Source: a virus (Duplodnaviria > Heunggongvirae > Uroviricota > Caudoviricetes). From it: DNA of 19,205 nucleotides. Below, one piece after another: positions 1,887 through 19,205 of the stretch. Below the pieces are notes generated by a model. The model did no database searches. It was not told the DNA's origin and worked only from the letters and a program-made list of their open reading frames with translations. Location: the IMG/VR virus record IMGVR_UViG_2675903324_000004. One strand, written 5' to 3'. A program made the translations under genes and the position numbers. The first letter of the stretch is position 1, and every line of letters starts with the position of its first letter.

Positions 1887-1995
1887 GCCGAATATTTTGC
1901 TGAAAAATGACGTTGGCCAACGCGGACGGATAACACGAAATCCTGCGAACTGGCAAAATGTAAGTGAATAACGTCAGGAACATTATTTCACGCAG

Positions 1996-2025: not shown

Positions 2026-2160
2026 GCGCTTCGCACAAGCGTAAATAAACCAAAGAACCTTTCAGGATGAGCCCTGGTGGATAACCGGCAGTGGTCTGGT
2101 TAACCCTCTTTGGGCTGGTTATTCCTGTGCGCAGGGTTCATCACTAAAAGGAAATAACCG

Positions 2161-2733: not shown

Positions 2734-2882
2734 TGGAGTGGTGGCTAATGATATCGGATAAAATCATAACGCTGACAAAGACCATTTGTGTGATTGTCGG
2801 CGTTTCATTTTCGCTAATGATGGTTGCTCTTTTTCTTTCCATAGCCTGGATGGCGTTGAGTTCGGCAGGGCTGGTGGGGTGA
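2733..2882 (+). CDS. small hydrophobic membrane protein (49 aa); possible lysis-accessory protein
   Basis: Not in the ORF track (<60 aa). Its ATG at 2733 overlaps the upstream stop (TGATG) and its TGA at 2880-2882 overlaps the Rz GTG start (GTGA), so it is translationally coupled on both sides. It encodes MEWWLMISDKIITLTKTICVIVGVSFSLMMVALFLSIAWMALSSAGLVG, with one long or two short transmembrane segments. It lacks the charged C-terminal tail usual for holins. Confidence 0.4.
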   Translation: MEWWLMISDKIITLTKTICVIVGVSFSLMMVALFLSIAWMALSSAGLVG

Positions 2883-3322: not shown

Positions 3323-3354
3323 TTTTTTTGCAAATCACAAAGTCAATTTAATGA

Positions 3355-3377
3355 GCCTCGCGATGCGGGGCTTTTTT
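3355..3377 (+). terminator. rho-independent terminator after Rz/Rz1
   Basis: 7-bp GC-rich stem GCCTCGC (3355-3361) / loop GAT / GCGGGGC (3365-3371), including one G-U pair, followed by TTTTTT (3372-3377). Confidence 0.7.
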
Positions 3378-3520
3378 ATGTCCGCAGTAAACGCGCATCT
3401 CACGCGCATATTAACGAGAGCCTTTCAGTAAGCGGGCCTGAGAATTGCCGTTATAGGTGGCGACCTCTCTCGGGCGGCTTTTCTGTGAGACAGGCTCACT
3501 TTCTAAAAGGTAAAGACGCC

Positions 3521-4018
3521 ATGAAAGCAATCACGCTTTTTAATACACCGATCCGTGTTGATGAATCAGGAATGATCTGCCTCACTGATATGTGGAAAGC
3601 CAGTGGTAAAAGTGAATCTGAATCTCCGTACCACTACCTGCGAAACAAGCAGACCAAAGAGTTCTTAGCCGAGCTGGAGAAAAACCACGAATCTGTGGTT
3701 TTTACTGAGCGCGGTGTACACGGTGGAACATATGGCGGGAAGTTTGTTGCTTATGATTATGCAGCATGGCTAACCCCCGGATTTAAATATGCAGCCTATA
3801 AAGTCCTGGATGACTACTTCACCGGAGAACTTCAGCATCGCAACAGCTTAAGTGCGCAGCTCAATATGAAGTGTCATGAGTTTGATCAGAAAAAAGATAT
3901 GGCGAGCTTCTGTGGGCAAGGTCTGGCGGCATGGCGCTATACGAAACCAGTGTTGGTCGCTGAGATTAACTCCCTGGCTAACCAGCTGCAGATAACGATC
4001 CCCGGGCTTCCGGGATGA
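3521..4018 (+). CDS. KilA-N domain-containing protein
   Basis: N-terminal region MKAITLFNTPIRVDESGMICLTDMWKASGK…GGKFVAYDYAAWLTPGFKYAAYKVLDDYF resembles KilA-N (APSES-like) DNA-binding domains common in prophage accessory regions. ATG 3521 is preferred over the GTG at 3485 by homology, but the start is uncertain. Confidence 0.7.
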   Translation: MKAITLFNTPIRVDESGMICLTDMWKASGKSESESPYHYLRNKQTKEFLAELEKNHESVVFTERGVHGGTYGGKFVAYDYAAWLTPGFKYAAYKVLDDYFTGELQHRNSLSAQLNMKCHEFDQKKDMASFCGQGLAAWRYTKPVLVAEINSLANQLQITIPGLPG

Positions 4019-4272
4019 GTGATCGTGTCATTGAATGCGCCTCCAGAGCGGGGCGCGACTTCTCAGAGTTCATGAAAGGCGAGAAGGGCATGATGGAAGC
4101 ATTGGCCTCGGTGGATGAGTTTGGCGAGCAGCTGCGCCTCAACGGCTGTGTCAATCATCACTTTGTTAGCTACATGATGCGGAACTCGATCATGCAGGCA
4201 TTCATGGACATGGCAAAAGCCGAGAGGAAAGAAGAGCGCCGGCGTAAGCGAGCGGAAGCAAAAGCGAAGTAG
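4015..4272 (+). CDS. small hypothetical protein (85 aa) with a basic, Arg/Lys-rich C-terminal tail
   Basis: The ATG at 4015 overlaps the stop of the KilA-N gene (ATGA), indicating translational coupling. The C-terminus is AKAERKEERRRKRAEAKAK. No family recognised. Confidence 0.5.
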   Translation: MSDRVIECASRAGRDFSEFMKGEKGMMEALASVDEFGEQLRLNGCVNHHFVSYMMRNSIMQAFMDMAKAERKEERRRKRAEAKAK

Positions 4273-4309
4273 CCATTACAAAGCCTACCTACGGGTGGGC
4301 TTGATAATG
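4273..4309. repeat. copy 1 of a repeated post-stop hairpin element (ATTACAAA - 5-bp stem AAGCC/GGCTT with 12-nt loop containing CCTAC - GATAATG)
   Basis: Lies immediately 3' of the TAG stop at 4270-4272 and resembles the element at 4873-4913 (roughly 75-80 percent identity by eye, same architecture). Confidence 0.6.
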
Positions 4310-4497
4310 AAACCGGAATTTATTCTGGGCAACCAGTTACGGCAGTACAGCGAAACAACCCAAGCCAGTAAGTGGGGAAATAACACTGGCAGCCACTGAA
4401 AGATGAACCTCCAGCCTTATGGCAAAAAAGATTCTTTGTGGTGGCAGACTGATGGAAAGACATCCTAATCAAGCAACCACTCCACAGGGTCATAATT

Positions 4498-4872
4498 ATG
4501 AACGACCAGCAAATCGAAAAAGAAATCGTTGAGAAAGGCAAAACGGCACCGCGTGTAACACCTGAGAAAATTGAAGGCCTCATTTGCAGTGAGCATTTTT
4601 TCACTGCTGCGCAGGGTGGCCACTAGGCTAAAGAAGATGACCTTATTTATAATCCGGAGCCTTATGTCGAAGCCACCCCTGATGCTCTGCACCTTCTTAC
4701 TTTCTGCGTATTGGTACTGAAGAATGGCTTCACCGTTACCGGAGAGAGTGCCTGTGCAAGTCCGGAAAATTTTGATGCAGAAATTGGTCGGAAGATTGCC
4801 CGGCAGAATGCTGTAAACAAAATCTGGATGCTCGAAGGTTACTTGCTGAAGCAGAAGCTAAGCGAACAGTAG
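4498..4872 (+). pseudogene. small phage accessory protein (possibly of the N4 Gp49 / Sf6 gp66-like family, tentative) interrupted by an in-frame TAG at 4624-4626
   Basis: The reading frame is continuous from ATG 4498 to TAG 4870-4872 (124 codons) except for a single in-frame TAG at codon 43. The downstream part (…LHLLTFCVLVLKNGFTVTGESACASPENFDAEIGRKIARQNAVNKIWMLEGYLLKQ) is clearly protein-like and has no in-frame ATG of its own other than one 14 codons from the end. The competing minus-strand ORFs (4320-4604, 4465-4692) look non-coding. Confidence 0.5.
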
Positions 4873-4913
4873 TTATTACAAAAGCCATTCCCTACAGAGT
4901 GGCTTTGATAATG
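4873..4913. repeat. copy 2 of the repeated post-stop hairpin element (7-bp stem AAAGCCA/TGGCTTT, 12-nt loop containing CCTAC, then GATAATG)
   Basis: Lies immediately 3' of the TAG stop at 4870-4872 and has the same architecture and flanking motifs as 4273-4309. Confidence 0.6.
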
Positions 4914-5229
4914 GCTTATACCCTACACGGGATAACTTAATTGATATCCTTTTTAACGGATAAAGGCATTTCAGCCTGACATAGCCATGCGCCGTATCGT
5001 CGCCGTATTCCTGCATTAACAGAGACCGCAGCCCGACAGGGAGACTCCTCTGCGAGAGTGTGCGGGGATAATCAAAAACGATACACACCGGGGTTTACCG
5101 CGTTAACGGAGCGCGGCGTTGTCCCCTCATGGTCGCTGGTCCGGTGCGATGGTGGAAGAAACTGGATTTTGTTGCAACTGATAACCATTATCATTTTGCG
5201 GGTCCTTTCCGGCGATCCGGGCCGTTACG

Positions 5230-5241
5230 GGGCGGCGACCT
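5230..5241. other. cosN: cosN cohesive-end site (12-nt overhang sequence GGGCGGCGACCT)
   Basis: The sequence 5208-5270, GCGGGTCCTTTCCGGCGATCCGGGCCGTTACG|GGGCGGCGACCT|CGCGGGTTTTCGCTATTTATGAAAATTTT, matches my memory of the lambda right-end/left-end junction almost base for base. It lies about 170 bp upstream of the terminase small subunit gene, as in lambda. Confidence 0.9.
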
Positions 5242-5400
5242 CGCGGGTTTTCGCTATTTATGAAAATTTTTAGGGAAAAATCAGATCCGTTCTTCTTCTT
5301 TTTAACTGATTGATTATCAATAGAATTTTAAAAATATAAAAGGATCTGACAAAGGCTGTTTTTGTCCGAAAACGCCATTTTCAGATCCTTTCTGGTTCCC
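5242..5400 (+). promoter_or_regulatory. cosB: cosB-like terminase-binding region with three R-site-like elements and an IHF-consensus-like AT-rich segment
   Basis: R3-like TCAGATCCGTTCTTCTTC (5281-5298); inverted R2-like AAAAGGATCTGACAAAGG (5338-5355); R1-like TTCAGATCCTTTCTGG (5380-5395). Spacing relative to cosN resembles lambda R3/R2/R1. AT-rich 5304-5337 contains a WATCAANNNNTTR-like match on the minus strand (AATCAATCAGTTA). Confidence 0.65.
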
Positions 5401-5410
5401 GGGGGAGTGT

Positions 5411-5959
5411 ATGAACGTCAATAAGAAAAAACTGGCCGATATTTTTGGCGTTGATGTCAGGACCATCACCGCCTGGCAGAGTCAGGGGTTACCACTAGTT
5501 TCTGGTGGAGGGAAAGGGACTGAATCAGTTTTTGATACAACTGCTGCCATTCAGTGGTATGCGCAGAGGGAAGCTGATATTGAAAACGAAAAACTCCGTA
5601 AAGAGATCGAGGATTTGAGGGCTGCCAGCGAATCAGACCTTCAGCCCGGCACCATTGATTACGAACGTTACCGACTGACGAAGGCACAGGCCGATGCACA
5701 GGAGCTGAAAAATGCTCGTGAGGAAGGCCTTGTCCTCGAGACGGAGTTATTTACCTACATCTTTCAGCGAGTGGCACAGAATATATCAGGGATCCTTGTC
5801 CGTGTCCCTCAGACACTGCAGCGTAAATACCCTGATATATCACCCGTACATCTTGATGCTGTGAAAACTGAAATCGCGAAAGCATCCGATGTGGCTTCTG
5901 AAGCCGGTGAGAATGTGCGCAGGTGGATTGATGATTTCAGACGAACTGAGGGCGGCTAA
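5411..5959 (+). CDS. Nu1: terminase small subunit (gpNu1 homolog)
   Basis: 182 aa with SD GGGGGAG upstream. Strong similarity from memory to lambda Nu1 (MEVNKKQLADIFGASIRTIQNWQEQGMPVLRGGGKGNEVLYDSAAVIKWYAE…), including the N-terminal winged-HTH region. Confidence 0.95.
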
Positions 5960-7859
5960 TTCTGCAGGAGCGATAGCAACCGGCCTCCTTGCGCTAAAAA
6001 TTCCTGTCCCTCTGACGACAGTTCAGTGGGCAGATCGACATTATTACCTTCCGAAAGAGTCATCTTACACCCCGGGGCGGTGGGAAACACTGCCGTTTCA
6101 GGTTGCCATCATGAACAGCATGGGGAATGACCGGATCCGCACTGTTAATCTGATTAAATCTGCCCGTGTTGGTTATACAAAGATGTTGCTGGGAGTGGAG
6201 GCTTATTTTATTGAGCATAAATCACGCAACAGCCTTCTTTTCCAGCCCACGGATTCTGCTGCTGAAGATTTTATGAAATCTCATGTGGAACCCACGATCA
6301 GGGATGTGCCGGTTTTACTCGATCTTGCACCGTGGTTTGGGCGTAAACATCGTGATAATACCCTCACGCTGAAACGTTTTTCATCGGGCGTGGGCTTCTG
6401 GTGCCTGGGCGGGGCTGCCGCTAAAAACTACCGTGAAAAATCCGTGGACGTGGTCTGCTATGACGAACTTTCCTCGTTCGAACCGGATGTCGAAAAAGAG
6501 GGTTCGCCAACCCTGCTTGGGGATAAACGTATTGAGGGCTCTGTATGGCCCAAATCCATTCGCGGCTCGACGCCTAAAATCAAAGGCACCTGCCAGATCG
6601 AAAAAGCGGCCAACGAGTCGGCGCATTTCATGCGTTTTTATGTGCCCTGCCCACACTGTGGGGAGGCGCAGTATCTGAAATTTGGCGATGAATCCACGCC
6701 TTTTGGCCTTAAATGGGAGAAGGACAGCCCCGAAAGCGTTTTCTACCTCTGTGAACATCATGGCTGCGTGATCCATCAGTCTGAGCTTGACCAGAGCAAC
6801 GGGCGGTGGATCTGTGAAAACACGGGGATGTGGACCCGTGACGGTCTGACGTTTTTCAGCGCCGCGGATAATGAAATTCCGCCGCCACGCTCCATCACGT
6901 TCCACATCTGGACGGCGTACAGTCCGTTCACCACCTGGGTACAGATAGTCTATGACTGGCTGGATGCACTGAAAGATCCCAACGGCGTGAAAACCTTTGT
7001 GAACACCACGCTGGGCGAGACCTGGGAAGAGGCCGTGGGCGAAAAACTCGATCACCAGGTACTGATGGATAAGGTTGTGCGTTACACGGCGGCGGTGCCT
7101 GCCCGGGTGGTTTATCTGACGGCGGGCATTGACTCGCAGCGAAACCGTTTTGAGATGTATGTCTGGGGATGGGCTCCGGGAGAGGAAGCCTTTCTGGTGG
7201 ATAAAATCATCATTATGGGGCGTCCCGATGAGGAAGAGACGCTGTTACGTGTGGATGCGGCGATCAACAAAAAATACCGCCATGCAGACGGAACCGAAAT
7301 GACCATTTCCCGGGTCTGCTGGGACACCGGGGGGATCGATGGCGAAATCGTTTATCAGCGGTCAAAAAAACACGGTGTTTTCCGGGTGCTGCCGGTAAAA
7401 GGCGCATCTGTCTATGGCAAGCCGGTGATCACCATGCCAAAAACCCGCAATCAGCGGGGCGTGTATCTGTGTGAAGTGGGGACGGACACCGCAAAAGAAA
7501 TTCTCTATGCCCGTATGAAAGCCGAGCCCACGCCTGCGGATGAAGCCACGTCGTATGCCATCCGTTTTCCTGATGATCCGGAGATTTTTTCGCAGACAGA
7601 GGCGCAGCAACTGGTGGCGGAAGAGCTGGTGGAGAAGTGGGAAAAAGGAAAGATGCGTCTGTTGTGGGATAACAAAAAGCGGCGTAACGAAGCGCTGGAC
7701 TGCCTGGTGTATGCCTACGCGGCATTACGTGTGTCCGTGCAACGCTGGCAGCTTGATCTGGCTGTACTGGCAAAATCCCGGGAAGAAGAGACGACCCGGC
7801 CAACCCTGAAAGAACTGGCAGCGAAGCTGTCCGGAGGAGTGAATGGTTACAGTCGCTGA
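5931..7859 (+). CDS. A: terminase large subunit (gpA homolog; ATPase/endonuclease)
   Basis: Collinear similarity to lambda gpA over its whole length (e.g. [53 protein letters not shown]). ATG 5931 (SD AGGTGG) gives a ~29-nt overlap with the Nu1 3' end as in lambda; ATG 5889 and 5913 are alternative starts in the same frame. Confidence 0.95.
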
Positions 7860-8049
7860 ACTGCAGGCGCTGCGTCAGGCGCGCCTTGATTTATTAACCG
7901 GTAAACGGGTGGTGTCTGTCCAGAAAGATGGTCGCAGAATTGAATATACGGCGGCTTCTCTGGATGAGCTTAACCGTGCGATCAATGATGCGGAGTCGGT
8001 ACTGGGGACAACCCGCCGTCGCCGTCGTCCGCTGGGAGTGAGGTTATGA
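7843..8049 (+). CDS. W: head-tail joining / head stabilisation protein (gpW homolog)
   Basis: 68 aa with SD GGAGGAG. Similar to lambda W (…[21 protein letters not shown]…). Overlaps the A stop and the B start. Confidence 0.9.
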   Translation: MVTVAELQALRQARLDLLTGKRVVSVQKDGRRIEYTAASLDELNRAINDAESVLGTTRRRRRPLGVRL

Positions 8050-9638
8050 AACGAACGCCTGTCCTGATTGATGTGAACGGCGTTCCGCTTCGGGAGAGCC
8101 TCAGCTACCACGGGGGCGGTGCAGGATTTGGCGGGCAAATGGCGGAGTGGTTGCCACCGGCGCAGAGTGCCGATGCAGCCCTGCTGCCTGCGTTGCGTCT
8201 GGGGAATGCCCGGGCAGATGATCTGGTGCGCAATAACGGGATAGCGGCTAATGCGGTGGCCCTGCATAAGGATCATATTGTCGGGCATATGTTTCTGATC
8301 AGCTACCGTCCGAACTGGCGCTGGCTGGGGATGCGGGAGACTGCGGCAAAAAGTTTTGTCGATGAGGTGGAGGCGGCCTGGTCGGAATACGCCGAAGGGA
8401 TGTTTGGCGAGATCGACGTGGAAGGGAAACGCACGTTTACGGAATTTATCCGTGAAGGTGTGGGCGTTCATGCGTTTAACGGCGAAATCTTTGTGCAGCC
8501 GGTCTGGGATACGGAGAGCACGCAACTGTTTCGTACGCGTTTTAAAGCCGTGAGTCCGAAACGGGTGGACACGCCAGGACACGGTATGGGGAACCGTTTT
8601 CTGCGGGCCGGTGTGGAGGTCGATCGATATGGTCGTGCCGTTGCGTACCATATCTGTGAGGATGATTTTCCGTTCTCCGGGAGTGGACGATGGGAACGGA
8701 TCCCGCGTGAACTTCCCACCGGGCGTCCGGCCATGCTGCATATTTTCGAGCCGGTGGAGGACGGGCAGACCCGTGGGGCCAATCAGTTTTACAGCGTAAT
8801 GGAACGGCTGAAGATGCTCGATTCCCTGCAGGCAACACAGCTTCAGTCGGCCATAGTGAAGGCGATGTATGCAGCGACGATTGAAAGTGACCTTGATACC
8901 GAAAAGGCCTTTGAATATATCGCCGGTGCGCCGCAGGGGCAGAAGGATAATCCGCTTATTAATATTCTGGATAAGTTCTCCACCTGGTATGACACGAATA
9001 GCGTGACGCTGGGCGGTGTCAAAATTCCGCACCTTTTCCCCGGTGATGATCTGAAACTTCAGACCGCGCAGGATTCAGACAATGGATTTTCGGCGCTTGA
9101 ACAGGCGCTGCTGCGGTATATCGCCGCCGGTCTTGGCGTTTCCTACGAACAGTTGTCCCGTGATTACTCGAAGGTCAGTTATTCAAGTGCCCGCGCATCC
9201 GCCAATGAGTCGTGGCGCTATTTTATGGGGCGGCGAAAATTTATTGCGTCCCGGCTGGCCACGCAGATGTTTTCCTGCTGGCTGGAAGAGGCACTTCTTC
9301 GGGGGATTATTCGTCCGCCACGGGCACGTTTTGATTTTTATCAGGCGCGATCAGCCTGGTCACGGGCTGAGTGGATTGGAGCCGGAAGAATGGCCATTGA
9401 CGGGCTCAAGGAGGTTCAGGAATCAGTGATGCGCATTGAGGCCGGACTGAGCACGTATGAGAAAGAGCTGGCGCTGATGGGCGAGGATTATCAGGACATT
9501 TTCCGCCAGCAGGTCAGGGAATCTGCAGAGCGGGAAAAAGCCGGACTCTCACATCCGGTGTGGATAGCGCAGGCGTATCAGCAGCAGATAGCGGAGAGTC
9601 GCAGGCCGGAAGAGGAGACAACACCACGTGAGACGTAA
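8046..9638 (+). CDS. B: portal protein (gpB homolog)
   Basis: 530 aa, collinear with lambda gpB (533 aa), e.g. HIFEPVEDGQTRGANQFYSVMERLKMLDSLQATQLQSAIVKAMYAATIES. Confidence 0.95.
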   Translation: MKRTPVLIDVNGVPLRESLSYHGGGAGFGGQMAEWLPPAQSADAALLPALRLGNARADDLVRNNGIAANAVALHKDHIVGHMFLISYRPNWRWLGMRETAAKSFVDEVEAAWSEYAEGMFGEIDVEGKRTFTEFIREGVGVHAFNGEIFVQPVWDTESTQLFRTRFKAVSPKRVDTPGHGMGNRFLRAGVEVDRYGRAVAYHICEDDFPFSGSGRWERIPRELPTGRPAMLHIFEPVEDGQTRGANQFYSVMERLKMLDSLQATQLQSAIVKAMYAATIESDLDTEKAFEYIAGAPQGQKDNPLINILDKFSTWYDTNSVTLGGVKIPHLFPGDDLKLQTAQDSDNGFSALEQALLRYIAAGLGVSYEQLSRDYSKVSYSSARASANESWRYFMGRRKFIASRLATQMFSCWLEEALLRGIIRPPRARFDFYQARSAWSRAEWIGAGRMAIDGLKEVQESVMRIEAGLSTYEKELALMGEDYQDIFRQQVRESAEREKAGLSHPVWIAQAYQQQIAESRRPEEETTPRET

Positions 9639-11133
9639 TCTTTCACACATTATTGCCGCAGCATTCAATGAACCGCTGCTTCTGGAGCCCGCCTATGCGC
9701 GGGTTTTCTTTTGCGCGCTCGGGCGCGAGATGGGGGCAGCAAGTCTTTCGGTACCACAACAGCAGGTACAGCTTGATGCTCCCGGAATGCTGGCTGAAAC
9801 GGACGAGTACATGGCCGGAGGTAAACGACCGGCCCGTGTTTACCGGGTGGTGAACGGTATTGCTGTACTGCCGGTGACCGGCACGCTGGTGCACCGGCTG
9901 GGCGGTATGCGGCCATTTTCCGGAATGACAGGCTATGACGGCATTGTCGCCTGTCTTCAGCAGGCAATGGCAGATAGCCAGGTGCGGGGCGTACTGCTGG
10001 ACATTGACAGTCCTGGCGGGCAGGCCGCCGGCGCGTTTGACTGCGCTGACATGATTTACCGCCTCCGTCAGCAGAAGCCGGTCTGGGCACTGTGCAATGA
10101 CACGGCCTGTTCTGCAGCCATGCTGCTGGCGTCGGCCTGCTCCCGACGGCTGGTTACCCAGACATCCCGTATCGGCTCCATTGGCGTGATGATGAGCCAT
10201 GTCAGCTATGCCGGTCATCTGGCGCAGGCCGGGGTGGATATCACGCTGATTTATGCCGGGGCGCACAAGGTGGATGGCAATCAGTTTGAAGCTTTACCGG
10301 CAGAGGTGCGTCAGGACATGCAGCAGCGGGTTGATGCGGCGCACCGGATGTTTGCCGAAAAAGTGGCGATGTATACGGGGCTGTCTGTGGAAGCTGTCAC
10401 GGGGACAGAGGCTGCCGTTTTTGAAGGTCAGTCCGCTATTAAGGCCGGACTGGCGGATGAATTAATCAATGCGTCGGATGCCATCAGCGTGATGGCTGCG
10501 GCGCTGAACACTCATGATACAGGAGGCACTATGCCGCAATTAACTGCAACGGAAGCTGCCGCGCAGGAGAACCAGCGAGTGATGGGGATCCTGACGTGTC
10601 AGGAAGCGAAAGGACGTGAACAGCTTGCCACGATGCTGGCAGGACAACAGGGCATGAGCATTGAACAGGCCCGGGCGATTCTGGCCGCGGCGGCACCACA
10701 GCAGCCGGTGGCATCCGCGCAGAGTGAAGCCGATCGCATTATGGCGTGTGAAGAAGCGAAAGGTCGTGAACAACTGGCGGCAACGCTGGCGGCGATGCCG
10801 GAGATGACGGTGGAAAAAGCCCGCCCGATCCTCGCTGCCTCACCGCAGGCGAATGCCGGGCCCTCACTTCGTGATCAGATCATGGCCCTGGATGAGGCAA
10901 AAGGGGCAGAAGCGCAGGCTGAAAAACTGGCGGCCTGCCCGGGAATGACCGTGGAGAACGCCCGGGCTGTGCTGGCTGCGGGATCAGGTAAGGCCGAACC
11001 GGTCTCTGCATCCACAACCGCCCTGTTTGAACATTTCATGGCGAACCATTCACCGGCAGCAGTGCAGGGTGGCGTGCCACAGACGTCAGCAGACGGTGAT
11101 GCGGACGTGAAAATGCTCATGGCCATGCCATGA
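9628..11133 (+). CDS. C: head maturation protease / minor capsid protein (gpC homolog, S49/ClpP-like)
   Basis: GTG start at 9628 overlapping the B stop. N-terminal ~300 aa similar to lambda gpC (AFNEPLLLEPAYARVFFCAL…, NGIAVLPVTGTLV…, RLVTQTSRIGSIGVMM). The C-terminal third contains the scaffold-like repeats. Confidence 0.9.
   Translation: MRRNLSHIIAAAFNEPLLLEPAYARVFFCALGREMGAASLSVPQQQVQLDAPGMLAETDEYMAGGKRPARVYRVVNGIAVLPVTGTLVHRLGGMRPFSGMTGYDGIVACLQQAMADSQVRGVLLDIDSPGGQAAGAFDCADMIYRLRQQKPVWALCNDTACSAAMLLASACSRRLVTQTSRIGSIGVMMSHVSYAGHLAQAGVDITLIYAGAHKVDGNQFEALPAEVRQDMQQRVDAAHRMFAEKVAMYTGLSVEAVTGTEAAVFEGQSAIKAGLADELINASDAISVMAAALNTHDTGGTMPQLTATEAAAQENQRVMGILTCQEAKGREQLATMLAGQQGMSIEQARAILAAAAPQQPVASAQSEADRIMACEEAKGREQLAATLAAMPEMTVEKARPILAASPQANAGPSLRDQIMALDEAKGAEAQAEKLAACPGMTVENARAVLAAGSGKAEPVSASTTALFEHFMANHSPAAVQGGVPQTSADGDADVKMLMAMP
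10531..11133 (+). CDS. Nu3: scaffolding protein (gpNu3-like), nested in-frame within the 3' part of C
   Basis: In-frame internal ATG at 10531 preceded by a consensus SD (AGGAGG at 10521-10526). A nested in-frame scaffold gene is the lambda C/Nu3 arrangement. The exact start is inferred, not proven. Confidence 0.55.
   Translation: MPQLTATEAAAQENQRVMGILTCQEAKGREQLATMLAGQQGMSIEQARAILAAAAPQQPVASAQSEADRIMACEEAKGREQLAATLAAMPEMTVEKARPILAASPQANAGPSLRDQIMALDEAKGAEAQAEKLAACPGMTVENARAVLAAGSGKAEPVSASTTALFEHFMANHSPAAVQGGVPQTSADGDADVKMLMAMP
10576..11013 (+). repeat. three diverged in-frame tandem repeats (~44-53 codons each) within C/Nu3
   Basis: Protein-level repeats: RVMGILTCQEAKGREQLATMLAGQQGMSIEQARAILAAAAPQ… / RIMACEEAKGREQLAATLAAMPEMTVEKARPILAASPQ… / QIMALDEAKGAEAQAEKLAACPGMTVENARAVLAAGSG…. 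Approximate unit boundaries are 10576, 10735 and 10879. Confidence 0.7.
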
Positions 11134-11169
11134 AGCCAGTGCTGACCATCAATATGAGGTTTTAACAAA

Positions 11170-11517
11170 ATGGTGACGAAAACCATCACTGAACAACGTG
11201 CGGAAGTACGTATTTTTGCCGGTAATGATCCGGCTCATACCGCCACAGGCAGCAGCGGGATTTCTCAGGCAACACCGGCACTGACCCCCCTGATGCTGGA
11301 TGAAGCCAGCGGGAAACTGGTGGTCTGGGACGGACAGAAAGCCGGTAGTGCGGTTGGCATACTGGTACTGCCGCTTGAAGGCACAGAGACGGTGCTGACC
11401 TATTACAAGTCGGGGACCTTTGCGACGGAGGCAATCCGCTGGCCTGACAGTGTGGATGAACACAAAAAGGCAAATGCCTTTGCCGGCACAGCCCTGAGTC
11501 ACGCGGCGCTGCCGTAA
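11170..11517 (+). CDS. D: head decoration protein (gpD homolog)
   Basis: 115 aa, similar to lambda gpD (…DPAHTATGSSG…TPLMLD…KLVVWDG…AVGILV…YKSGTF…AFAGTA…). Confidence 0.9.
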   Translation: MVTKTITEQRAEVRIFAGNDPAHTATGSSGISQATPALTPLMLDEASGKLVVWDGQKAGSAVGILVLPLEGTETVLTYYKSGTFATEAIRWPDSVDEHKKANAFAGTALSHAALP

Positions 11518-11574
11518 CACGTTATCAGGCCGCCGCGTTGGCCTGACTGATTTCTGAATGAAAGGAACTGATTT

Positions 11575-12603
11575 ATGGGATTGTTTACGACCCGCCAGTT
11601 ACTCGGTTATACCGAACAAAAAGTGAAATTTCGTGCGCTGTTTCTGGAACTGTTTTTCCGCCGTACGGTGAATTTCCACACCGAAGAGGTGATGCTGGAC
11701 AAAATTACCGGAAAAACGCCGGTGGCGGCCTATGTCTCCCCGATCGTTGAAGGAAAAGTGCTTCGCCATCGCGGTGGTGAAACCCGCGTGTTACGTCCGG
11801 GCTACGTCAAGCCCAAACACGAATTTAATTACCAGCAGGCGGTTGAGCGCCTTCCTGGTGAAGATCCGGCTCAGCTGAACGACCCGGCCTACCGTCGTCT
11901 GCGTATCATTACCGATAACCTCAAACAGGAAGAGCACGCCATTGTCCAGGTGGAAGAAATGCAGGCGGTGAATGCCGTGCTGTATGGCAAATACACCATG
12001 GAAGGGGATCAGTTTGATACTGTCGAGGTGGATTTCGGGCGCTCTGAAGGAAATAACATTGAGCAGGCTGACGGTAAAAAATGGTCTGAGCAGGACCGTG
12101 ATACGTTTGATCCGACGCATGATATTGACCTCTACTGCGATCAGGCCAGCGGCCTTGTGAATATCGCCATTATGGACGGTACGGTCTGGCGTCTGCTGAA
12201 TGGCTTTAAGCTGTTCCGCGAAAAACTGGATACCCGTCGCGGCTCAAATTCACAACTCGAAACGGCAGTGAAAGATCTGGGCGCAGTGGTGTCCTTCAAG
12301 GGGTATTACGGCGATCTGGCCATTGTGGTGGCGAAAACGTCTTATGTGGCAGAGGACGGTACCGAAAAACGTTATCTGCCGGAGGGCATGCTGGTGCTGG
12401 GGAATACGGCGGCAGAGGGGATTCGTTGCTATGGTGCCATTAAGGATGCACAGGCGTTGTCTGAAGGAGTGGTGGCTTCTTCCCGTTACCCGAAACACTG
12501 GCTGACCGTGGGCGATCCGTCCTGTGAATTCACCATGACGCAGTCCGCTCCGCTGATGGTGCTGCCGGATCCGGATGAGTTTGTGGTGGTACAGGTGAAA
12601 TAA
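11575..12603 (+). CDS. E: major capsid protein (gpE homolog)
   Basis: 342 aa with SD AAGGA. Collinear with lambda gpE (341 aa), e.g. PGYVKPKHE, RRGSNSQLETAVKDLG, FTMTQSAPLMVLPDPDEFV. Confidence 0.95.
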   Translation: MGLFTTRQLLGYTEQKVKFRALFLELFFRRTVNFHTEEVMLDKITGKTPVAAYVSPIVEGKVLRHRGGETRVLRPGYVKPKHEFNYQQAVERLPGEDPAQLNDPAYRRLRIITDNLKQEEHAIVQVEEMQAVNAVLYGKYTMEGDQFDTVEVDFGRSEGNNIEQADGKKWSEQDRDTFDPTHDIDLYCDQASGLVNIAIMDGTVWRLLNGFKLFREKLDTRRGSNSQLETAVKDLGAVVSFKGYYGDLAIVVAKTSYVAEDGTEKRYLPEGMLVLGNTAAEGIRCYGAIKDAQALSEGVVASSRYPKHWLTVGDPSCEFTMTQSAPLMVLPDPDEFVVVQVK

Positions 12604-12610
12604 TCCGTGA

Positions 12611-12640
12611 GCGGGGGCGAAATGCCCCCGTGTCTTTTTT
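12611..12640 (+). terminator. intrinsic terminator/attenuator immediately after the major capsid gene
   Basis: Stem GCGGGGGC (12611-12618) / loop GAAAT / GCCCCCGT (12624-12631), then a T-tract (12634-12640). The next gene's SD AGGAGG follows at 12644-12649. Confidence 0.7.
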
Positions 12641-12654
12641 CACAGGAGGCTGAG

Positions 12655-13038
12655 ATGGCAACAAAAGAAGAAAATCTGAATCGTCTTCGTCAACTGGCTG
12701 GCCTGCTGGGGCGCGAGGCGGATATGTCGGGGAGTGCTGCGGATATTGCTCAACGTGTGTCTGAGTGGGAAGAGGAGCTTGCTGTTTCCCCGGAGGGCAT
12801 TATGCACTCTGATGAGAGCGGGGCTGATCAAAATCACACAGACGATGGTGAGCAGTTGAACAACACGGATGCTCCGGATGATGTTAAAGCCGTCCGGGTA
12901 CGGAAGTGCCTGCAAGTAATGGGGTATTGCCCGGAGACAGGTCGTCCCGTTGAGCTGGCGTTACGGGGGATGCGTGTTCTGGTGCCATCATCACTGGCAA
13001 CGGCCATGATACAGCACGGAACGGCTGAATATGCGTGA
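12655..13038 (+). CDS. FI: DNA packaging / head assembly protein (gpFI-like)
   Basis: ATG 12655 with a consensus SD (AGGAGG, 5-nt spacer); the upstream GTG at 12607 would span the terminator. Position between E and FII, an acidic central linker and overall size match lambda FI. Sequence similarity to lambda FI is weaker than for the neighbouring genes. Confidence 0.7.
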   Translation: MATKEENLNRLRQLAGLLGREADMSGSAADIAQRVSEWEEELAVSPEGIMHSDESGADQNHTDDGEQLNNTDAPDDVKAVRVRKCLQVMGYCPETGRPVELALRGMRVLVPSSLATAMIQHGTAEYA

Positions 13039-13384
13039 TTTTCAGAATGCCTTTGATGCTGCCCTCGCCGGGGTAGACAGTACGATCGTTGAAGTGATGG
13101 GGCTCTGTGCGCAGTTCACCTCGGGGGCACAGTGTGGCAGCGAAGTTCAGGGGGTTTTTGACGATCCGGAGTCGCTGGGGTTTGCCGGTGGCGGGGTCCG
13201 TATTGAAGGAAGCAGCCCGTCATTATTTGTGCGGACGGATACGGTTCGTGCCGTGCGGCGTGGTGACACGCTGACCATTAATGGTGAGATATTCTGGGTG
13301 GATCGTGTTTCTCCGGATGACGGGGGCAGCTGTTATCTCTGGCTCAACCGTGGTCAACCACCCGCAGTTAACCGGCGACGATAA
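13031..13384 (+). CDS. FII: head-tail connector protein (gpFII homolog)
   Basis: 117 aa, similar to lambda FII (…GVFDDPE…GVRIEGSSPSLFVRTD…RRGDTLTI…FWVDRVSPDDGGSC.LWL.RG.PPAVNRRR). Confidence 0.9.
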   Translation: MRDFQNAFDAALAGVDSTIVEVMGLCAQFTSGAQCGSEVQGVFDDPESLGFAGGGVRIEGSSPSLFVRTDTVRAVRRGDTLTINGEIFWVDRVSPDDGGSCYLWLNRGQPPAVNRRR

Positions 13385-13399
13385 ACGCAGGGTGAAATT

Positions 13400-13975
13400 A
13401 TGGCGATAAAAGGGCTTGATCAGGCGATTGACAATCTGAGCCGGGTTCGTAAAAACGCCATTCCGGCGGCTTCAGCAATGGCCATTAACCGCGTGGCCAC
13501 AACGGCGATTAATCAGTCTTCATCACAGGTTGCCCGGGAGACAAAGGTTCGCCGGAAACTGGTTAAGGAACGGTCCAGACTGAAACGGGCGACGGTCAGA
13601 AATCCGAATGCCAGAATTATCGTTAACCGCGGTGATCTCCCTGTGATTAAGCTGGGGATCAGGATGCTGGGGCGTCGCCCGAACAGCATACTTAAAGCCG
13701 GTCAGCATCGTTATCAGCGGGCATTTATCCAGCGATTAAATAATGGGCGCTGGCATGTTATGCAACGTCTTCCCCAGGCCAGATATGAGGAGGGCAATGA
13801 CGACAAGGGAAGGAAAAAGCGTAATCGCCTTCCCATTCAGGTGGTGAAAATCCCGATGGCGGCCCCACTGAAACAGGCATTTGATGAGAATGTTGACCGT
13901 ATCCGGCGTGAACGCCTGCCTAAAGAACTGGCATACGCGCTGAAACAACAACTGAGGATTGCGATAAAACGATGA
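13400..13975 (+). CDS. Z: tail completion protein (gpZ homolog)
   Basis: 191 aa, similar to lambda Z (MAIKGLEQA…ARETKVRRKLVKER.RLKRATV.NP.ARI.VNRGDLPVIKLG…VVKIPMA…RIRRERLPKEL). Confidence 0.9.
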   Translation: MAIKGLDQAIDNLSRVRKNAIPAASAMAINRVATTAINQSSSQVARETKVRRKLVKERSRLKRATVRNPNARIIVNRGDLPVIKLGIRMLGRRPNSILKAGQHRYQRAFIQRLNNGRWHVMQRLPQARYEEGNDDKGRKKRNRLPIQVVKIPMAAPLKQAFDENVDRIRRERLPKELAYALKQQLRIAIKR

Positions 13976-14367
13976 AACACACTGACATTCGTGCCGCAGT
14001 GCTGGATGCACTCGAGCAGCATGAACACGGGGCGACGCTGTTTGATGGTCGCCCCGTTGTTTTTGACGAAGAGGATTTTCCTGCGATCGCGGTTTATCTG
14101 ACGGATGCAGAGTATACCGGTGAAGAGCTGGATGCAGATACCTGGCGGGCCACACTGCATATTGAGGTGTTTTTACCGGCACAGGTACCTGATTCGGAGC
14201 TCGATCAGTGGATGGAAAGCCGGATTTATCCGGCGATGACTGCGATCCCTGCACTGGCAGGACTGATTACCACGATGGTTACGCAGGGCTATGAGTATCG
14301 TCGTGATGACGATATGGCGTTATGGAGCTCTGCAGATCTGACTTATTCCATTACATACGAGATGTGA
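13972..14367 (+). CDS. U: tail terminator protein (gpU homolog)
   Basis: 131 aa, near-collinear with lambda U ([15 protein letters not shown]…[24 protein letters not shown]…DLTY.ITYEM). ATGA overlap with Z. Confidence 0.95.
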
Positions 14368-14374
14368 GGACGAT

Positions 14375-15127
14375 ATGGCAACACCAAATCCCCTGGAGCC
14401 AGTAAAAGGTGCCGGTACCACTCTGTGGGTTTACAACGGCAAGGGTGATGCTTATGCAAACCCGTTGTCAGACGCTGACTGGCAGCGACTGGCTAAGGTG
14501 AAGGATCTGACGCCGGGCGAGATGACGGCAGAATCCTACGATGATAACTACCTGGATGATGAAGACGCAGACTGGACCGCGACCGGGCAGGGGCAGAAAT
14601 CTGCAGGTGATACCAGTTTTACGCTGGCCTGGAAACCGGGAGAGGAAGGTCAGAAAGGGCTTATAGGCTGGTTTGAAAGCGGCGATGTCCGGGCCTATAA
14701 AATCCGTTTTCCGAATGGCACGGTGGATGTGTTTCGTGGCTGGGTCAGCAGTATCGGTAAGGCCGTGACGGCGAAAGAAGTGATCACCCGCACGGTGAAA
14801 GTCACTAACGTGGGTAAACCTTCTGTAGCGGAAGAACGCAGCAAAATTACGCCGGTCAGTGCGATTAAGGTGACGCCTACATCCGGTACGGTGGCAAAAG
14901 GGAAAACAACCACCCTGACGGTTTCTTTTGAGCCGGAAAGTGCAACCGACAAGACGTTCAGAGCGGTTTCCGCCGATCCGTCGAAAGCCACCATTAGTGT
15001 GAAAGATATGACAATTACGGTAAACGGCGTGGCGACAGGTAAGGTGCAGATCCCTGTGGTGAGCGGAAATGGTCAGTTCGCCGCAGTGGCTGAAGTCACC
15101 GTTACTGAAGCGGGCGCTGCAGGGTAA
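14375..15127 (+). CDS. V: major tail tube protein (gpV homolog) with C-terminal Ig-like domain
   Basis: 250 aa, highly similar to lambda V ([10 protein letters not shown]…[55 protein letters not shown]…). Confidence 0.95.
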
Positions 15128-15140
15128 ACGGAGGTAATAC

Positions 15141-15572
15141 ATGTTTCTGAAAACAGAACAATTTGAATATAACGGTGTGTCTGTCACGCTTTCCGAATTG
15201 TCTGCGCTGCAGCGTATCGAGCATCTTGCCCTTCTGAAACGGCGTGCAGAACAGGCAGAATCCAGCGGCAACCTGCAGGTAAGCGTGGAAGATCTCGTCA
15301 GAACCGGCGCGTTTCTGGTGGCGATGTCCCTGTGGCATAACCATCCACAGAAAACGCAGTCACCGTCAATGAATGAGGACGTGATGAAGATAGAGCAGGA
15401 AGTGCTCACCACCTGGCCTGCCGATGCCATTGCCCGGGCGGAAGACGTGGTGTTGTGCCTGTCCGGGATGATCGAAGCTGTTCGTCCGGATACTGATATT
15501 ACTGAAGTGGCGAAAAATAACACGCTGACTGATGATGATTTTTCTGCGGGAAAGTCTTCGACGGCGAGCTGA
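15141..15572 (+). CDS. G: tail assembly chaperone (gpG homolog)
   Basis: 143 aa with SD GGAGG. Similar to lambda G (MFLKTE.FE.NGV.VTLSELSALQRIEHLAL.KR.AEQAES…), ending …AGKSSTAS just after the slippery site. Confidence 0.9.
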   Translation: MFLKTEQFEYNGVSVTLSELSALQRIEHLALLKRRAEQAESSGNLQVSVEDLVRTGAFLVAMSLWHNHPQKTQSPSMNEDVMKIEQEVLTTWPADAIARAEDVVLCLSGMIEAVRPDTDITEVAKNNTLTDDDFSAGKSSTAS

Positions 15573-16012
15573 ACTTTGCCCTCAGACTGGCGCGTGAGAT
15601 GGGGAGACCCGACTGGCGCGCCATGCTTGCCGGGATGACATCCACCGAATATGCCGACTGGCGACGTTTTTACCGCACGCATTATTTTCACGATACCCAG
15701 CTGGATATGCATTTTTCCGGGCTGACGTACGCCGTACTCAGCCTGTTTTTATACGATCCGGATATGCATCCCTCGGATTTCAGTCTGCTTGTCCCCCGGC
15801 GTGAGGAAGCGCAGACGGAGAGGCCGGATGAGGAAGACATGCTGATGCAGAAAGCGGCAGGACTTGCCGGAGGCGTCCGGTTCGGCGGGGAGGGCGGGGG
15901 CGATATTTCACCTTCTGCGGATGTGGTGGATGTCAGCGAGGATGATGTCGCATTAATGATGGCTTCTGCGGGGATTTCCGGAGGTGTGAGATATGTCCCA
16001 GCCGGTTGGTGA
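15141..16012 (+). CDS. G-T: tail assembly chaperone fusion protein G-T, produced by -1 frameshift at 15548-15554
   Basis: G frame to the slippery site, then the -1 frame (track ORF 15599-16012 plus its upstream open extension). The T-region sequence is similar to lambda gpT (GRPDWRAMLAGM.STEYADW.RFY.THYFHD…LDMHFSGLTY.VLSLF). Confidence 0.8.
15548..15554 (+). promoter_or_regulatory. programmed -1 ribosomal frameshift slippery heptamer G GGA AAG (G -> G-T fusion)
   Basis: The heptamer GGGAAAG sits in the correct phase of the G frame (GGA = codon 15549-15551). The -1 frame is open from here to 16012 and encodes …GKVFDGELNFALRLAREMGRPDW…, matching the lambda gpT region. Confidence 0.85.
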
Positions 16013-18566
16013 TCTTGTTATTGACCTGAGTCTGGATGCGGTCCGTTTCGATGAGCAGATGACCCGCGTAAGGCGTCATTTTTCAGGACTGGAGACTGAC
16101 GCCAGAAAAACCGCCAGTGCTGTTGAGCAGGGGCTGAGCCGTCAGGCGCTGGCTGCACAAAAAGCCGGGATGTCCGTCGGGCAGTATAAAGCGGCCATGC
16201 GAACCCTGCCTGCACAGTTTACGGATATCGCCACGCAGCTTGCCGGTGGTCAGAATCCCTGGCTGATCCTGCTGCAACAGGGCGGTCAGGTGAAGGACTC
16301 CTTCGGCGGGATGATCCCCATGTTCAGGGGGCTCGCCGGTGCGATCACCCTGCCGATGGTCGGGGTCACCTCGCTGGCGGTGGCGACAGGTGCGCTGGTG
16401 TACGCCTGGTACCAGGGAGATTCCACGCTTTCAGCGTTTAATAAAACCCTGGTTCTTTCCGGTAATCAGTCCGGACTGACTGCCGATCGTATGCTGACTC
16501 TCTCAAGAGCCGGGCAGGCAGCAGGGCTGACGTTTAACCAGGCGAGAGAGTCACTGGCAGCCCTGGTGAATGCCGGTGTGCGTGGTGGTGAACAGTTTGA
16601 TGCCATCAACCAGAGTGTCGCGCGTTTTGCGTCTGCATCCGGTGTGGAGGTGGATAAAGTCGCTGAAGCCTTCGGGAAGCTGACCACTGACCCGACGTCG
16701 GGACTGATGGCGATGGCGCGCCAGTTCCGTAACGTGACGGCAGAGCAGATTGCGTATGTTGCACAGCTGCAGCGTTCCGGAGACGAGGCCGGGGCATTGC
16801 AGGCGGCGAACGATATCGCCACGAAAGGCTTTGATGAGCAGACCCGTCGCCTGAAAGAAAACATGGGAACACTGGAGACCTGGGCGGATAAAACAGGGAA
16901 GGCATTCAAATCGATGTGGGATGCCATTCTGGATATCGGTCGTCCTGAATCCTCAGCGGATATGCTCGCCAGTGCGCAGAAGGCATTTGATGAGGCGGAT
17001 AAAAAATGGCAGTGGTACCAGAGCCGGAGCCAGCGCCGGGGAAAGACCTCCTCTTTTCGTGCGAACCTTCAGGGGGCATGGGATGACCGGGAAAATGCCC
17101 GTCTGGGTCTGGCAGCGGCCACGCTGCAGTCGGATATGGAAAAAGCCGGTGAACTGGCGGCAAGGGACCGGGCTGAGCGTTAGGCGTCACAGCTGAAGTA
17201 TACCGGAGAGGCGCAGAAGGCGTATGAGCGCCTGCAGACGCCGCTGGATAAATATACCGCCCGTCAGAAAGAGCTGAATAAGGCCCTGAAAGACGGAAAA
17301 ATCCTGCAGGCGGATTACAACACGCTGATGGCGTCGGCAAAAAAGGATTATGAATCGACGCTGAAAAAGCCGTCAGGTGTGAAGGTGTCTGCCGGTGAGC
17401 GCCAGGAAGACCGGGCGCATGCAGCCATGCTGGCGCTTGAAACCGAGCTCAGGACGCTGGAAAAACACAGCGGTGTGAATGAGAAAATCAGCCAGCAGCG
17501 CCGGGATTTATGGGAAGCGGAAAATCAGTATGTGGTCCTGAAAGAGGCCGCCACGAAACGGCAGTTATCTGAGCAGGAAAAATCCCTGCTGGCTCATGAG
17601 AAAGAAACGCTGGAGTACAAACGCCAGCTGGCTGAGCTGGGTGACAAGGTTGAATACCAGAAACGGCTGAATGAGCTGGCACAGCAGGCGGCACGGTTTG
17701 AAGAGCAGCAGAGCGCGAAGCAGGCCGCCATCAGCGCAAAAGCCCGTGGTCTCACTGACCGTCAGGCGCAGCGGGAGTCTGAAGAGCAGCGTCTTCGTGA
17801 CGTGTATGGCGATAATCCGCAGGCGCTGGCCCGGGTCACCGGGGCACTGAAACAGACATGGGCGGATGAAGACATGCTGCGCGGTGACTGGCTGGCCGGT
17901 CTGAAGTCCGGCTGGGGTGAGTGGACGGAAAGTGCGACGGACAGTTTTTCGCAGGTTAAAAGTGCTGCCACGCAGACCTTTGACGGTATTGCACAGAATA
18001 TGACGGCGATGCTGACCGGTGCAGAGGCAGACTGGCGGGGATTCACCCGTTCGGTGCTGTCCATGATGACAGAAATCCTGCTTAAACAGGCCATGGTGGG
18101 CATTGTCGGGCGTATCGGCAGCGCCATTGGTGGTGCTTTCGGTGGTGGGGCGTCTGCCTCCACGGGGACGGCCATTGAGGCTGCGGCGGCGAACTTTCAT
18201 TTTGCGACCGGCGGATTTACGGGCACGGGCGGCAAATATGAGCCTGCGGGGATAGTTCACCGCGGGGAGTTTGTCTTCACGAAGGAGGCAACCAGCCGGA
18301 TAGGCGTGGGGAATCTTTACCGTCTGATGCGCGGCTATGCGGAAGGGGGTTATGTGGGTGGTGCCGGAAGTCCGGCGCAGATGCGGCGGGCGGAAGGTAT
18401 TAATTTTAATCAGAACAATCACGTGGTGATTCAGAACGACGGTATCAACGGACAGGCGGGGCCGCAGCTGATGAAGGCGGTGTATGACATGGCCCGCAAG
18501 GGGGCGCAGGATGAACTCCGGCTGCAGTTGCGTGATGGCGGTATGTTATCAGGGAGCGGGCGATGA
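15993..18566 (+). pseudogene. H: tail tape measure protein (gpH homolog) interrupted by a single in-frame TAG at 17181-17183
   Basis: Track ORFs 15993-17183 and 17328-18566 are in the same frame (both coordinates ≡ 0 mod 3), and the 144 nt between them are open in that frame. The translation is collinear with lambda gpH across the junction (…LKYTGEAQKAYERLQTPLDKYTARQKELNKALKDGKILQADYNTLMASAKKDYESTLKK). The only interruption is the TAG at 17181-17183. ATG 15993 has SD GGAGG. Confidence 0.85.
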
Positions 18567-18892
18567 AAACCTTTCGCTGGAAAGTGAAGCCGGATATGGA
18601 GGTGAACTCGCAGCCATCGGTGCGTGAAGTGCGTTTTGGTGACGGGTACTCACAGCGTATGGCGGCAGGGCTGAATGCTGACCTGAAAACATACCGGGTG
18701 ATGCTTTCCGTGAGCCGGGAGGAGGCCCGGCATCTGGAAGCGTTCCTGGCAGAGCACGGGGGCTGGAAGGCATTTTTGTGGAAGCCACCCTATGCATACC
18801 GGCAGATAAAGGTGACCTGTGCCGGGTGGTCTGCGCGGGTCGGGATGTTGCGCGTTGAGTTCAGCGCGGAGTTTAAGCAGGTGGTGAACTGA
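18563..18892 (+). CDS. M: minor tail protein (gpM homolog)
   Basis: 109 aa, similar to lambda M (MKTFRWKVKP.M.V…VR.VRFGDGYSQR…FLWTPPY…RQIKVTCA.WS.RV.MLRVEFSAEF.QVVN). ATGA overlap with the H stop. Confidence 0.9.
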   Translation: MKTFRWKVKPDMEVNSQPSVREVRFGDGYSQRMAAGLNADLKTYRVMLSVSREEARHLEAFLAEHGGWKAFLWKPPYAYRQIKVTCAGWSARVGMLRVEFSAEFKQVVN

Positions 18893-19205
18893 TGCAGGAT
18901 ATTCACGAAGCAAGCCTGAACGAGTCGGTTAAATCAGAGCAGTCACCGCGGGTGGTGCTCTGGGAAATCGACCTGACGGTGCAGGGCGGTGAGCGGTATT
19001 TTTTCTGCAATGAGCTGAATGAAAAAGGGGAGCCGGTGACCTGGCAGGGGCGTGAATATCAGGCGTACCCGATTGAGGGGAGTGGCTTTGAGATGAACGG
19101 AAAGGGCAGCAGTGCCCGCCCGTCGCTGACGGTGTCCAATCTTTTCGGCCTTGTCACCGGGATGGCGGAGGATTTGCAGAGCCTGGTGGGGGCCACGGTG
19201 GTCCG
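18892..19205 (+). CDS. L: minor tail protein (gpL homolog), 3'-truncated by the window edge
   Basis: ATG 18892 overlaps the M stop (TGATG). The product, MQDIHEASLNE…VVLWEIDLT.QGGERYFFCNE.NEKGEPVTWQGR.YQ.YPI.GSGFE.NGKG…, is similar to the lambda L N-terminus. The ORF runs off the end of the window. Confidence 0.9.
   Translation, partial: MQDIHEASLNESVKSEQSPRVVLWEIDLTVQGGERYFFCNELNEKGEPVTWQGREYQAYPIEGSGFEMNGKGSSARPSLTVSNLFGLVTGMAEDLQSLVGATVV

What the first reader, a model, noticed from the sequence alone, without database searches (positions are those of the whole stretch)
15993..18566. Tape measure gene H is split by a single in-frame amber codon (TAG 17181-17183)
The two track ORFs are one gene in one frame, with protein collinear to lambda gpH on both sides of the stop. 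By my recollection the homologous lambda position is a sense codon (Glu), so a single G->T change would create the TAG. Every other morphogenesis gene in the window looks intact. The possibilities are a very recent inactivating mutation (a tail-defective cryptic prophage), a sequencing or assembly error, a host with an amber suppressor, or a laboratory-derived amber mutant.
Basis: partly seen in the sequence, partly recalled or inferred. Interest (0 to 1): 0.75.

Follow-up and report, generated by a model that had tools for sequence, protein, structure and literature searches.

The report
Amber-broken tape measure gene in prophage
A lambda-like prophage fragment from a draft E. coli-type genome has one premature stop codon in its tail-length (tape measure) gene, which is an ordinary one-off inactivating mutation (or, less likely, a base-call error) of a kind common in prophages.

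Summary
Window 15993-18566 is one reading frame of 857 sense codons, broken only by TAG at 17181-17183 (codon 397). It encodes a lambda gpH-type tape measure protein (77% identical to lambda gpH) in an otherwise intact Z-U-V-G/T-H-M-L tail operon. Lambda has Glu (GAA) at the aligned residue, and 85 of 87 close homologs examined have GAG. The TAG allele was found nowhere else: not in 5,426 complete E. coli genomes, IMG/VR, GTDB representatives or JGI metagenomes. The window is a whole public contig (LOIH01000143.1, draft assembly GCA_001607555.1), so the TAG is in the deposited record. The stop removes 460 residues, including the Tape_meas_lam_C domain and the C-terminal helix that anchors gpH in the tail tip, and no restart signal follows it. 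The prophage therefore should not build tails on its own. Such damage is common: 5 of 46 full-length homologs in the fetched loci are broken, including an independent amber at codon 825 in the closest relative. Amber is also the expected nonsense outcome, at 54% of single-base routes in this gene. Two things remain unexplained or untested. The only otherwise identical allele (E. coli RM14516) differs at the same nucleotide (AAG, Lys). A second, inherited amber lies in the gp49-family gene (4624-4626). Raw reads and host suppressor tRNAs could not be checked. Verdict: ordinary, low interest.

The parts
15993..17180 (+). 5' part of tape measure gene H: codons 1-396, the only part expected to be translated. 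It contains the Pfam TMP_2 domain (residues 54-256).
17181..17183 (+). In-frame amber codon TAG (codon 397). Close homologs have GAG (85 of 87), or AAG in RM14516 and one IMG/VR contig; lambda has GAA (Glu391).
17184..18566 (+). 3' part of H: 460 codons plus TGA, cut off from translation. It holds the Tape_meas_lam_C domain and the C-terminal helix that corresponds to the tip-anchored lambda gpH residues 818-842. The first in-frame ATG (17328) has no Shine-Dalgarno sequence.
15141..15572 (+). Tail assembly chaperone gene G, intact. The lambda-type -1 slippery heptamer G GGA AAG lies at 15548-15554 in the correct phase.
15599..16012 (+). T reading frame, open and continuous with G after a -1 shift (G-T fusion). 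It overlaps the start of H.
18563..18892 (+). Tail tip gene M, intact. Its start overlaps the H stop codon. It is identical to the OkiPb01681 M protein at all 110 positions, and the RM14516 DNA is also identical here.

Best explanation
This is a genuine, private nonsense mutation in the tape measure gene H of a lambdoid prophage. One transversion at window 17181 (G->T from GAG, or A->T from AAG) turned codon 397 into TAG. Shown: the stop exists in the deposited contig, it is unique to that contig, and homologs carry a sense codon there. Inferred: translation ends after 396 residues. The fragment lacks the C-terminal 460 residues, including the Tape_meas_lam_C domain and the C-terminal helix that sits in the tail tip on the gpI trimer. 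It therefore cannot nucleate or measure a tail, and the prophage makes heads but no tails on its own. Also inferred: it could still be rescued in trans, or by recombination with a co-resident lambdoid prophage, or leak slightly through natural UAG read-through.
For: There is a single in-frame TAG in an otherwise open 857-codon frame. The protein is collinear with lambda gpH, and the aligned lambda residue is Glu391. The allele census with exact flanks is G 85, A 2, T 0. A 33-nt probe centred on the TAG finds nothing in 5,426 complete E. coli genomes, while the same probe with A finds RM14516, so the method works. The exact 33-mer is absent from IMG/VR, GTDB representative genomes and JGI metagenomes. 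The window equals public contig LOIH01000143.1, TAG included. The N-terminal fragment holds only TMP_2, and the lost part holds Tape_meas_lam_C. The gpH C-terminal helix 818-842 is anchored in the tip by gpI, and gpH forms a trimer inside the tube (PMC10721106). No Shine-Dalgarno/start combination follows the stop. Broken H genes are common among relatives: 5 of 46 full-length homologs, including an independent CAG->TAG at codon 825 in OkiPb01681, which RefSeq flags as a pseudogene with an internal stop. TAG is the expected outcome, at 153 of 282 single-base nonsense routes in H. Defective lambdoid prophages are the rule in E. coli O157 Sakai, and their defects can be complemented (PMC2669165). 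H homologs occur at a median of 2 places per E. coli genome that has any.
Against: The source is contig 143 of a draft assembly and the reads could not be inspected, so a base-call error is not excluded. The host genome could not be searched for suppressor tRNAs. The only otherwise identical allele (RM14516) differs at exactly the same nucleotide. A random recent hit does not predict that coincidence.
Confidence: 0.72

Rival explanations
1. Sequencing or assembly error: the true base at 17181 is G or A, and the T is a miscall in a draft assembly.
For: The window is a complete 19,205-nt contig of a fragmented draft genome. The allele is seen nowhere else. H homologs usually occur in several copies per genome, which complicates assembly. 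Four of the five broken homologs in the fetched loci carry indels, some probably errors in drafts.
Against: A mixture of paralogous G and A copies would not produce a T call. Consensus substitution errors are rare (my estimate, not measured here), and only 282 of 7,722 possible substitutions in H make a stop. A random error would also have to fall on the one nucleotide that distinguishes RM14516. Real nonsense mutations in this gene do occur in finished genomes, for example OkiPb01681.
Confidence: 0.15
2. The gene is functional through amber suppression. A host or co-resident phage suppressor tRNA, or efficient natural read-through, inserts an amino acid at codon 397, so full-length gpH is made.
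For: The contig holds two in-frame ambers, in gp49 at 4624-4626 and in H at 17181-17183. The sister prophage in OkiPb01681 has a third, in H. Both Glu and Lys occur at this residue in intact homologs, so substitution is tolerated.
Against: The window has no tRNA gene. Three ambers are not unusual, because TAG accounts for 54% of nonsense routes in H and 82% of transition routes. The gp49 amber is inherited across hosts from China and Japan and is flagged as a pseudogene by RefSeq. TAG also serves as the normal stop of three genes in the window. No relative conserves a stop at codon 397.
Confidence: 0.05
3. The gene is a natural split or a programmed read-through arrangement, making a short N-terminal product plus a rare full-length product.
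For: None beyond the presence of the stop. A GGGAAAG heptamer lies 140 nt upstream, at 17039-17045.
Against: The stop is not conserved in any of 87 close homologs or 5,426 genomes. The heptamer count in the window matches chance, and a -1 shift there terminates after 13 codons. No restart signal is present.
Confidence: 0.01
4. It is a laboratory-derived amber (sus) mutant of a phage.
For: Amber mutations in lambda gene H are classic laboratory tools (established knowledge).
Against: The sequence is not lambda: 77% amino-acid identity in H, and about 79% nucleotide identity to lambda copies over the 3' part of H. The best phage record is 94.8% identical. The sequence is a mosaic of wild E. coli prophages and comes from a draft bacterial genome.
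Confidence: 0.01

Closest known systems
Bacteriophage lambda gpH tape measure protein and its amber (sus H) mutants
   Same: Same gene family (TMP_2 plus Tape_meas_lam_C), 77% identity, and the same position in a V-G/T-H-M-L operon with an intact G-T frameshift site. An amber codon truncates the protein.
   Different: This is not lambda and not a laboratory allele. It is a natural mosaic prophage in a draft genome. The tail-less phenotype is inferred here, not tested.
Tape measure pseudogene of the sister prophage in E. coli OkiPb01681 (NZ_AP042510.1, ACZ5ML_RS10530, 'internal stop')
   Same: It is the closest overall relative, 99.1% identical over window 1310-19205. Its H gene is also broken by a single amber, and it shares the gp49 amber.
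   Different: Its stop is at codon 825 (CAG->TAG, window position 18465), not at codon 397, so it is an independent event.
Defective lambdoid prophage pool of E. coli O157 Sakai (Asadulghani et al. 2009, PMC2669165)
   Same: These are lambdoid prophages carrying point, frameshift, deletion or IS defects in genes needed for propagation. The defects can be complemented or repaired by co-resident prophages.
   Different: In Sakai, most of the prophages carry multiple genetic defects. In this window the single amber in H is the only defect found in a morphogenesis gene, and the rest of the prophage lies outside the 19-kb contig.
H allele of E. coli RM14516 (NZ_CP043937.1, WP_265468617.1)
   Same: Identical to the window over 15831-19205 (3,375 nt) except for one base.
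   Different: It has AAG (Lys) where the window has TAG, and it is annotated as an intact gene. Its head genes are only about 96% identical to the window.

Membership tests
Lambda gpH-type tail tape measure protein | N-terminal TMP_2 domain (PF06791) | tested here: met
   E = 5.9e-70, residues 54-256 of the 396-residue fragment
Lambda gpH-type tail tape measure protein | Tape_meas_lam_C domain (PF09718) near the C-terminus | tested here: met
   E = 1.6e-21 in the reading frame downstream of the TAG. It is encoded but lies beyond the stop.
Lambda gpH-type tail tape measure protein | End-to-end collinearity with lambda gpH | tested here: met
   662 identical positions of 859 aligned columns, on both sides of the stop
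Lambda gpH-type tail tape measure protein | Position between the G/T chaperone genes (with a -1 frameshift site) and gene M | tested here: met
Lambda gpH-type tail tape measure protein | Uninterrupted reading frame (functional gene) | tested here: not met
   TAG at codon 397. By sequence this is a pseudogene of the family.
Programmed stop-codon read-through or naturally split gene | The stop is conserved at the same position in independent homologs | tested here: not met
   0 of 87 homologs with identical flanks, and no hit in 5,426 E. coli genomes, IMG/VR, GTDB representatives or JGI metagenomes
Programmed stop-codon read-through or naturally split gene | A ribosome-binding site and start codon for a separate downstream cistron | tested here: not met
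   The first in-frame ATG is at 17328 and has no Shine-Dalgarno sequence
Amber-suppressed gene | A tRNA with a CUA anticodon in the phage or host | not testable with these tools
   The window has no tRNA gene. The other contigs of GCA_001607555.1 could not be reached.
Laboratory lambda sus mutant | The sequence is lambda or a laboratory derivative | tested here: not met
   77% amino-acid identity to lambda gpH; about 79% nucleotide identity to lambda copies over the 3' part of H; the source is a draft bacterial genome contig

The most novel reading that the evidence does not exclude
The ambers are not dead ends. This prophage lineage carries two in-frame TAGs in the contig (gp49 and H), and its sister carries a third in H. 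It may live in a natural amber-suppressing background, through a host or helper-phage suppressor tRNA, so that H is still expressed. A milder variant: the window preserves the amber ancestor of the rare Lys allele in RM14516, making a natural mutant and pseudo-revertant pair (GAG->TAG->AAG). That would explain why the two otherwise identical alleles differ at the very same nucleotide. I would put the milder variant at roughly 0.25, with interest about 0.3.
Probability: 0.05. Interest if true: 0.5.

Novelty: already known. Interest (0 to 1): 0.1.

Why it matters
It matters little beyond annotation. The two ORFs at 15993-17183 and 17328-18566 should be annotated as one tape measure pseudogene. 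The prophage should be scored as tail-defective unless it is helped by another prophage. If this is an Stx-type long-tailed prophage (its relatives include Stx2a-converting phages), such a defect would block transduction by that prophage alone. The same-site G/A/T variation is a small curiosity. It could record a natural amber reversion, but one site in two genomes cannot establish that.

Tried and rejected
**Searches for the TAG allele elsewhere**
- An exact 33-mer search found nothing in IMG/VR, GTDB representative genomes or JGI metagenomes.
- A 33-nt megablast probe found nothing in complete E. coli genomes.
- The 396-residue truncated product is not on record in the gene-position index.

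**Finding the source and the host**
- A search of GTDB representatives with the downstream K protein gave no source genome. It returned mostly lambda contamination in unrelated assemblies, and E. albertii at 92%.
- The source was then found through the exact large terminase sequence.
- No paper mentions the LOIH accession, so the strain's identity and sequencing method remain unknown.

**Alternatives considered and rejected**
- A frameshift bypass through the GGGAAAG at 17039-17045 is rejected, because both shifted frames terminate before or just past the TAG.
- A restart downstream of the TAG is rejected, because there is no Shine-Dalgarno sequence.
- A phage-borne suppressor tRNA is rejected for this contig, because the window has no tRNA gene.
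- A hairpin or quasi-palindrome hotspot at the site was considered. By eye there is only a 4-bp inverted repeat (GTGA/TCAC) around the G allele, which is too small to explain the variation.
- A diversity-generating retroelement was considered. Nothing in the window suggests one, but I did not search for it.

Full report
**Observation**

Window 15993-18566 translates in one frame as 396 sense codons, TAG at 17181-17183, 460 more sense codons and a terminal TGA. The ORF list shows the two pieces in the same frame, 15993..17183 and 17328..18566.

**What the gene is**

- The N-terminal piece matches Pfam TMP_2 (E = 5.9e-70), and the frame after the stop matches Tape_meas_lam_C (E = 1.6e-21).
- Aligned with lambda gpH, 662 of 859 columns are identical and both sides of the stop are collinear. 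The stop falls at the end of the most divergent segment, opposite lambda Glu391, codon GAA.
- The surrounding genes are a lambda-type late operon: terS, terL, W, portal, C, D, E, FI, FII, Z, U, V, G, T, H, M, L. All are open when mapped onto the RefSeq annotation of the nearest relative.
- The G-T -1 frameshift site (G GGA AAG, 15548-15554) is in phase, and the fusion frame is open.

**Where the window comes from**

The exact large terminase protein occurs on only one contig in the gene-position index: LOIH01000143.1 of draft assembly GCA_001607555.1. That contig is 19,205 nt long, the same length as the window. The stored part (1-17859) is identical to the window, TAG included. The stop is therefore in the public record. 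No product is on record there for H, which suggests, but does not show, that H was treated as a pseudogene in that annotation. No complete RefSeq E. coli genome holds the whole window. The best is OkiPb01681, at 99.1% over 93% of it. The window is a mosaic. Its head genes, and the tail genes through G, resemble OkiPb01681. From 15831 to the end it is identical to E. coli RM14516 apart from one base.

**What homologs have at the site**

- Base 17181 is G in PhiR12_1, ST130, S19-141 and OkiPb01681 (GAG, Glu), and A in RM14516 (AAG, Lys).
- Among all fetched loci with identical flanks, the count is G 85, A 2, T 0.
- A 33-nt probe centred on the TAG has no match in 5,426 complete E. coli genomes. 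The same probe with A finds exactly one genome, RM14516, which also serves as a positive control.
- The exact TAG 33-mer is absent from IMG/VR, GTDB representative genomes and JGI metagenomes.

The stop is therefore private to this contig.

**Likely consequence**

- In lambda, gpH is a trimer inside the tail tube. Its C-terminal helix (residues 818-842) forms a coiled coil in the tip lumen and rests on the gpI trimer. gpH works with chaperones to initiate tail polymerisation and sets the tail length (PMC10721106).
- A 396-residue fragment lacks all of this. The first in-frame ATG after the stop (17328) has no Shine-Dalgarno sequence.
- I infer that the prophage cannot build tails on its own. 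This step is inferred, not shown.
- Rescue in trans or by recombination is plausible. H homologs occur at a median of two places per E. coli genome that has any. Complementation of defective lambdoid prophages is documented (PMC2669165).

**How unusual this is**

It is not unusual.

- Of 46 full-length H homologs in the fetched loci, five are disrupted, one by a nonsense codon and four by indels.
- The nonsense case is the closest relative. OkiPb01681 has an independent CAG->TAG at codon 825, and RefSeq flags it as a pseudogene with an internal stop.
- That the stop is amber carries no information. In H, 153 of 282 single-base routes to a stop give TAG, as do 75 of 92 transition routes.

**Rival explanations**

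- A base-call error cannot be excluded, because the reads are not available and the source is a fragmented draft. However, a T cannot arise from mixing G and A paralogs, and only 3.7% of substitutions in H create a stop.
- Suppression cannot be tested. The window has no tRNA gene, and the host's other contigs are out of reach.
- Programmed read-through or a natural split is contradicted by the lack of conservation.
- A laboratory amber mutant is contradicted by the sequence not being lambda and by its source.

**An unexplained detail**

Across five close H alleles, the window and RM14516 match each other at every variable site and agree with the majority at all but two of them, 18197 and 18515, which they share with OkiPb01681. 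They differ only at 17181, where each has its own base (T and A) against G in the rest. Two independent hits on one nucleotide in 3.4 kb of otherwise identical sequence are improbable. A serial history is more economical. One order, GAG->TAG->AAG, would make RM14516 a pseudo-revertant of the amber. The other order is GAG->AAG->TAG. The AAG allele also occurs in an IMG/VR contig on a background only 96% identical, within a 281-nt identical patch, so it has had time to recombine. The data cannot fix the order.

**Verdict**

This is an ordinary prophage pseudogene of a well-known gene, and interest is low.

Noticed in passing
window 4498-4872 (+), TAG at 4624-4626: There is a second in-frame amber in the window. 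The gp49-family gene (Pfam Phage_gp49_66) has TAG at codon 43, where an intact homolog (strain 98889) has CAG. The same TAG is shared by OkiPb01681 and STEC435, where RefSeq marks the gene as a pseudogene with an internal stop, so it is an older, inherited nonsense mutation.
   Followed up: yes
L016 17684-20257 (OkiPb01681); equivalent to window 18465: The closest overall relative carries its own, independent amber in H: codon 825, CAG->TAG. This removes the C-terminal tip-anchoring helix.
   Followed up: yes
window 17181; L002 (RM14516) 21189; L039: One nucleotide has three alleles. G is the common one, A occurs only in RM14516 among 5,426 complete genomes plus one IMG/VR contig, and T occurs only in the window. 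The window and RM14516 are otherwise identical over 3,375 nt. This may be a mutant and revertant pair, but it is unresolved.
   Followed up: partly
window 1353-3322: The lysis cassette is interrupted. A P22-type antirepressor N-terminal domain gene (2161-2733) and a small ORF (2733-2882) lie between the lysozyme gene (1353-1886) and the Rz-like lysis gene (2879-3322). A KilA-N/ORF11CD3 gene follows at 3521-4018.
   Followed up: no
window 15449-15831 and 16040-16211: These are mosaic junctions. To the left of about 15450 the window follows OkiPb01681-type sequence. From 15831 onwards it is identical to RM14516. Eleven of the 19 differences from OkiPb01681 in H cluster in 16040-16211.
   Followed up: partly
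loci L095-L106, L115 and others (GTDB representative genomes): Many unrelated genomes (Neobacillus, Pseudomonas, Shewanella, Bradyrhizobium and others) hold low-coverage contigs of about 48.4 kb or fragments encoding a K protein 88% identical to the query. These look like phage lambda DNA contamination of the assemblies.
   Followed up: no
window 17039-17045: A GGGAAAG heptamer lies inside H in the same phase as the G-T slippery site. Both shifted frames terminate soon after it, and the heptamer count in the window matches chance, so it has no apparent role.
   Followed up: yes
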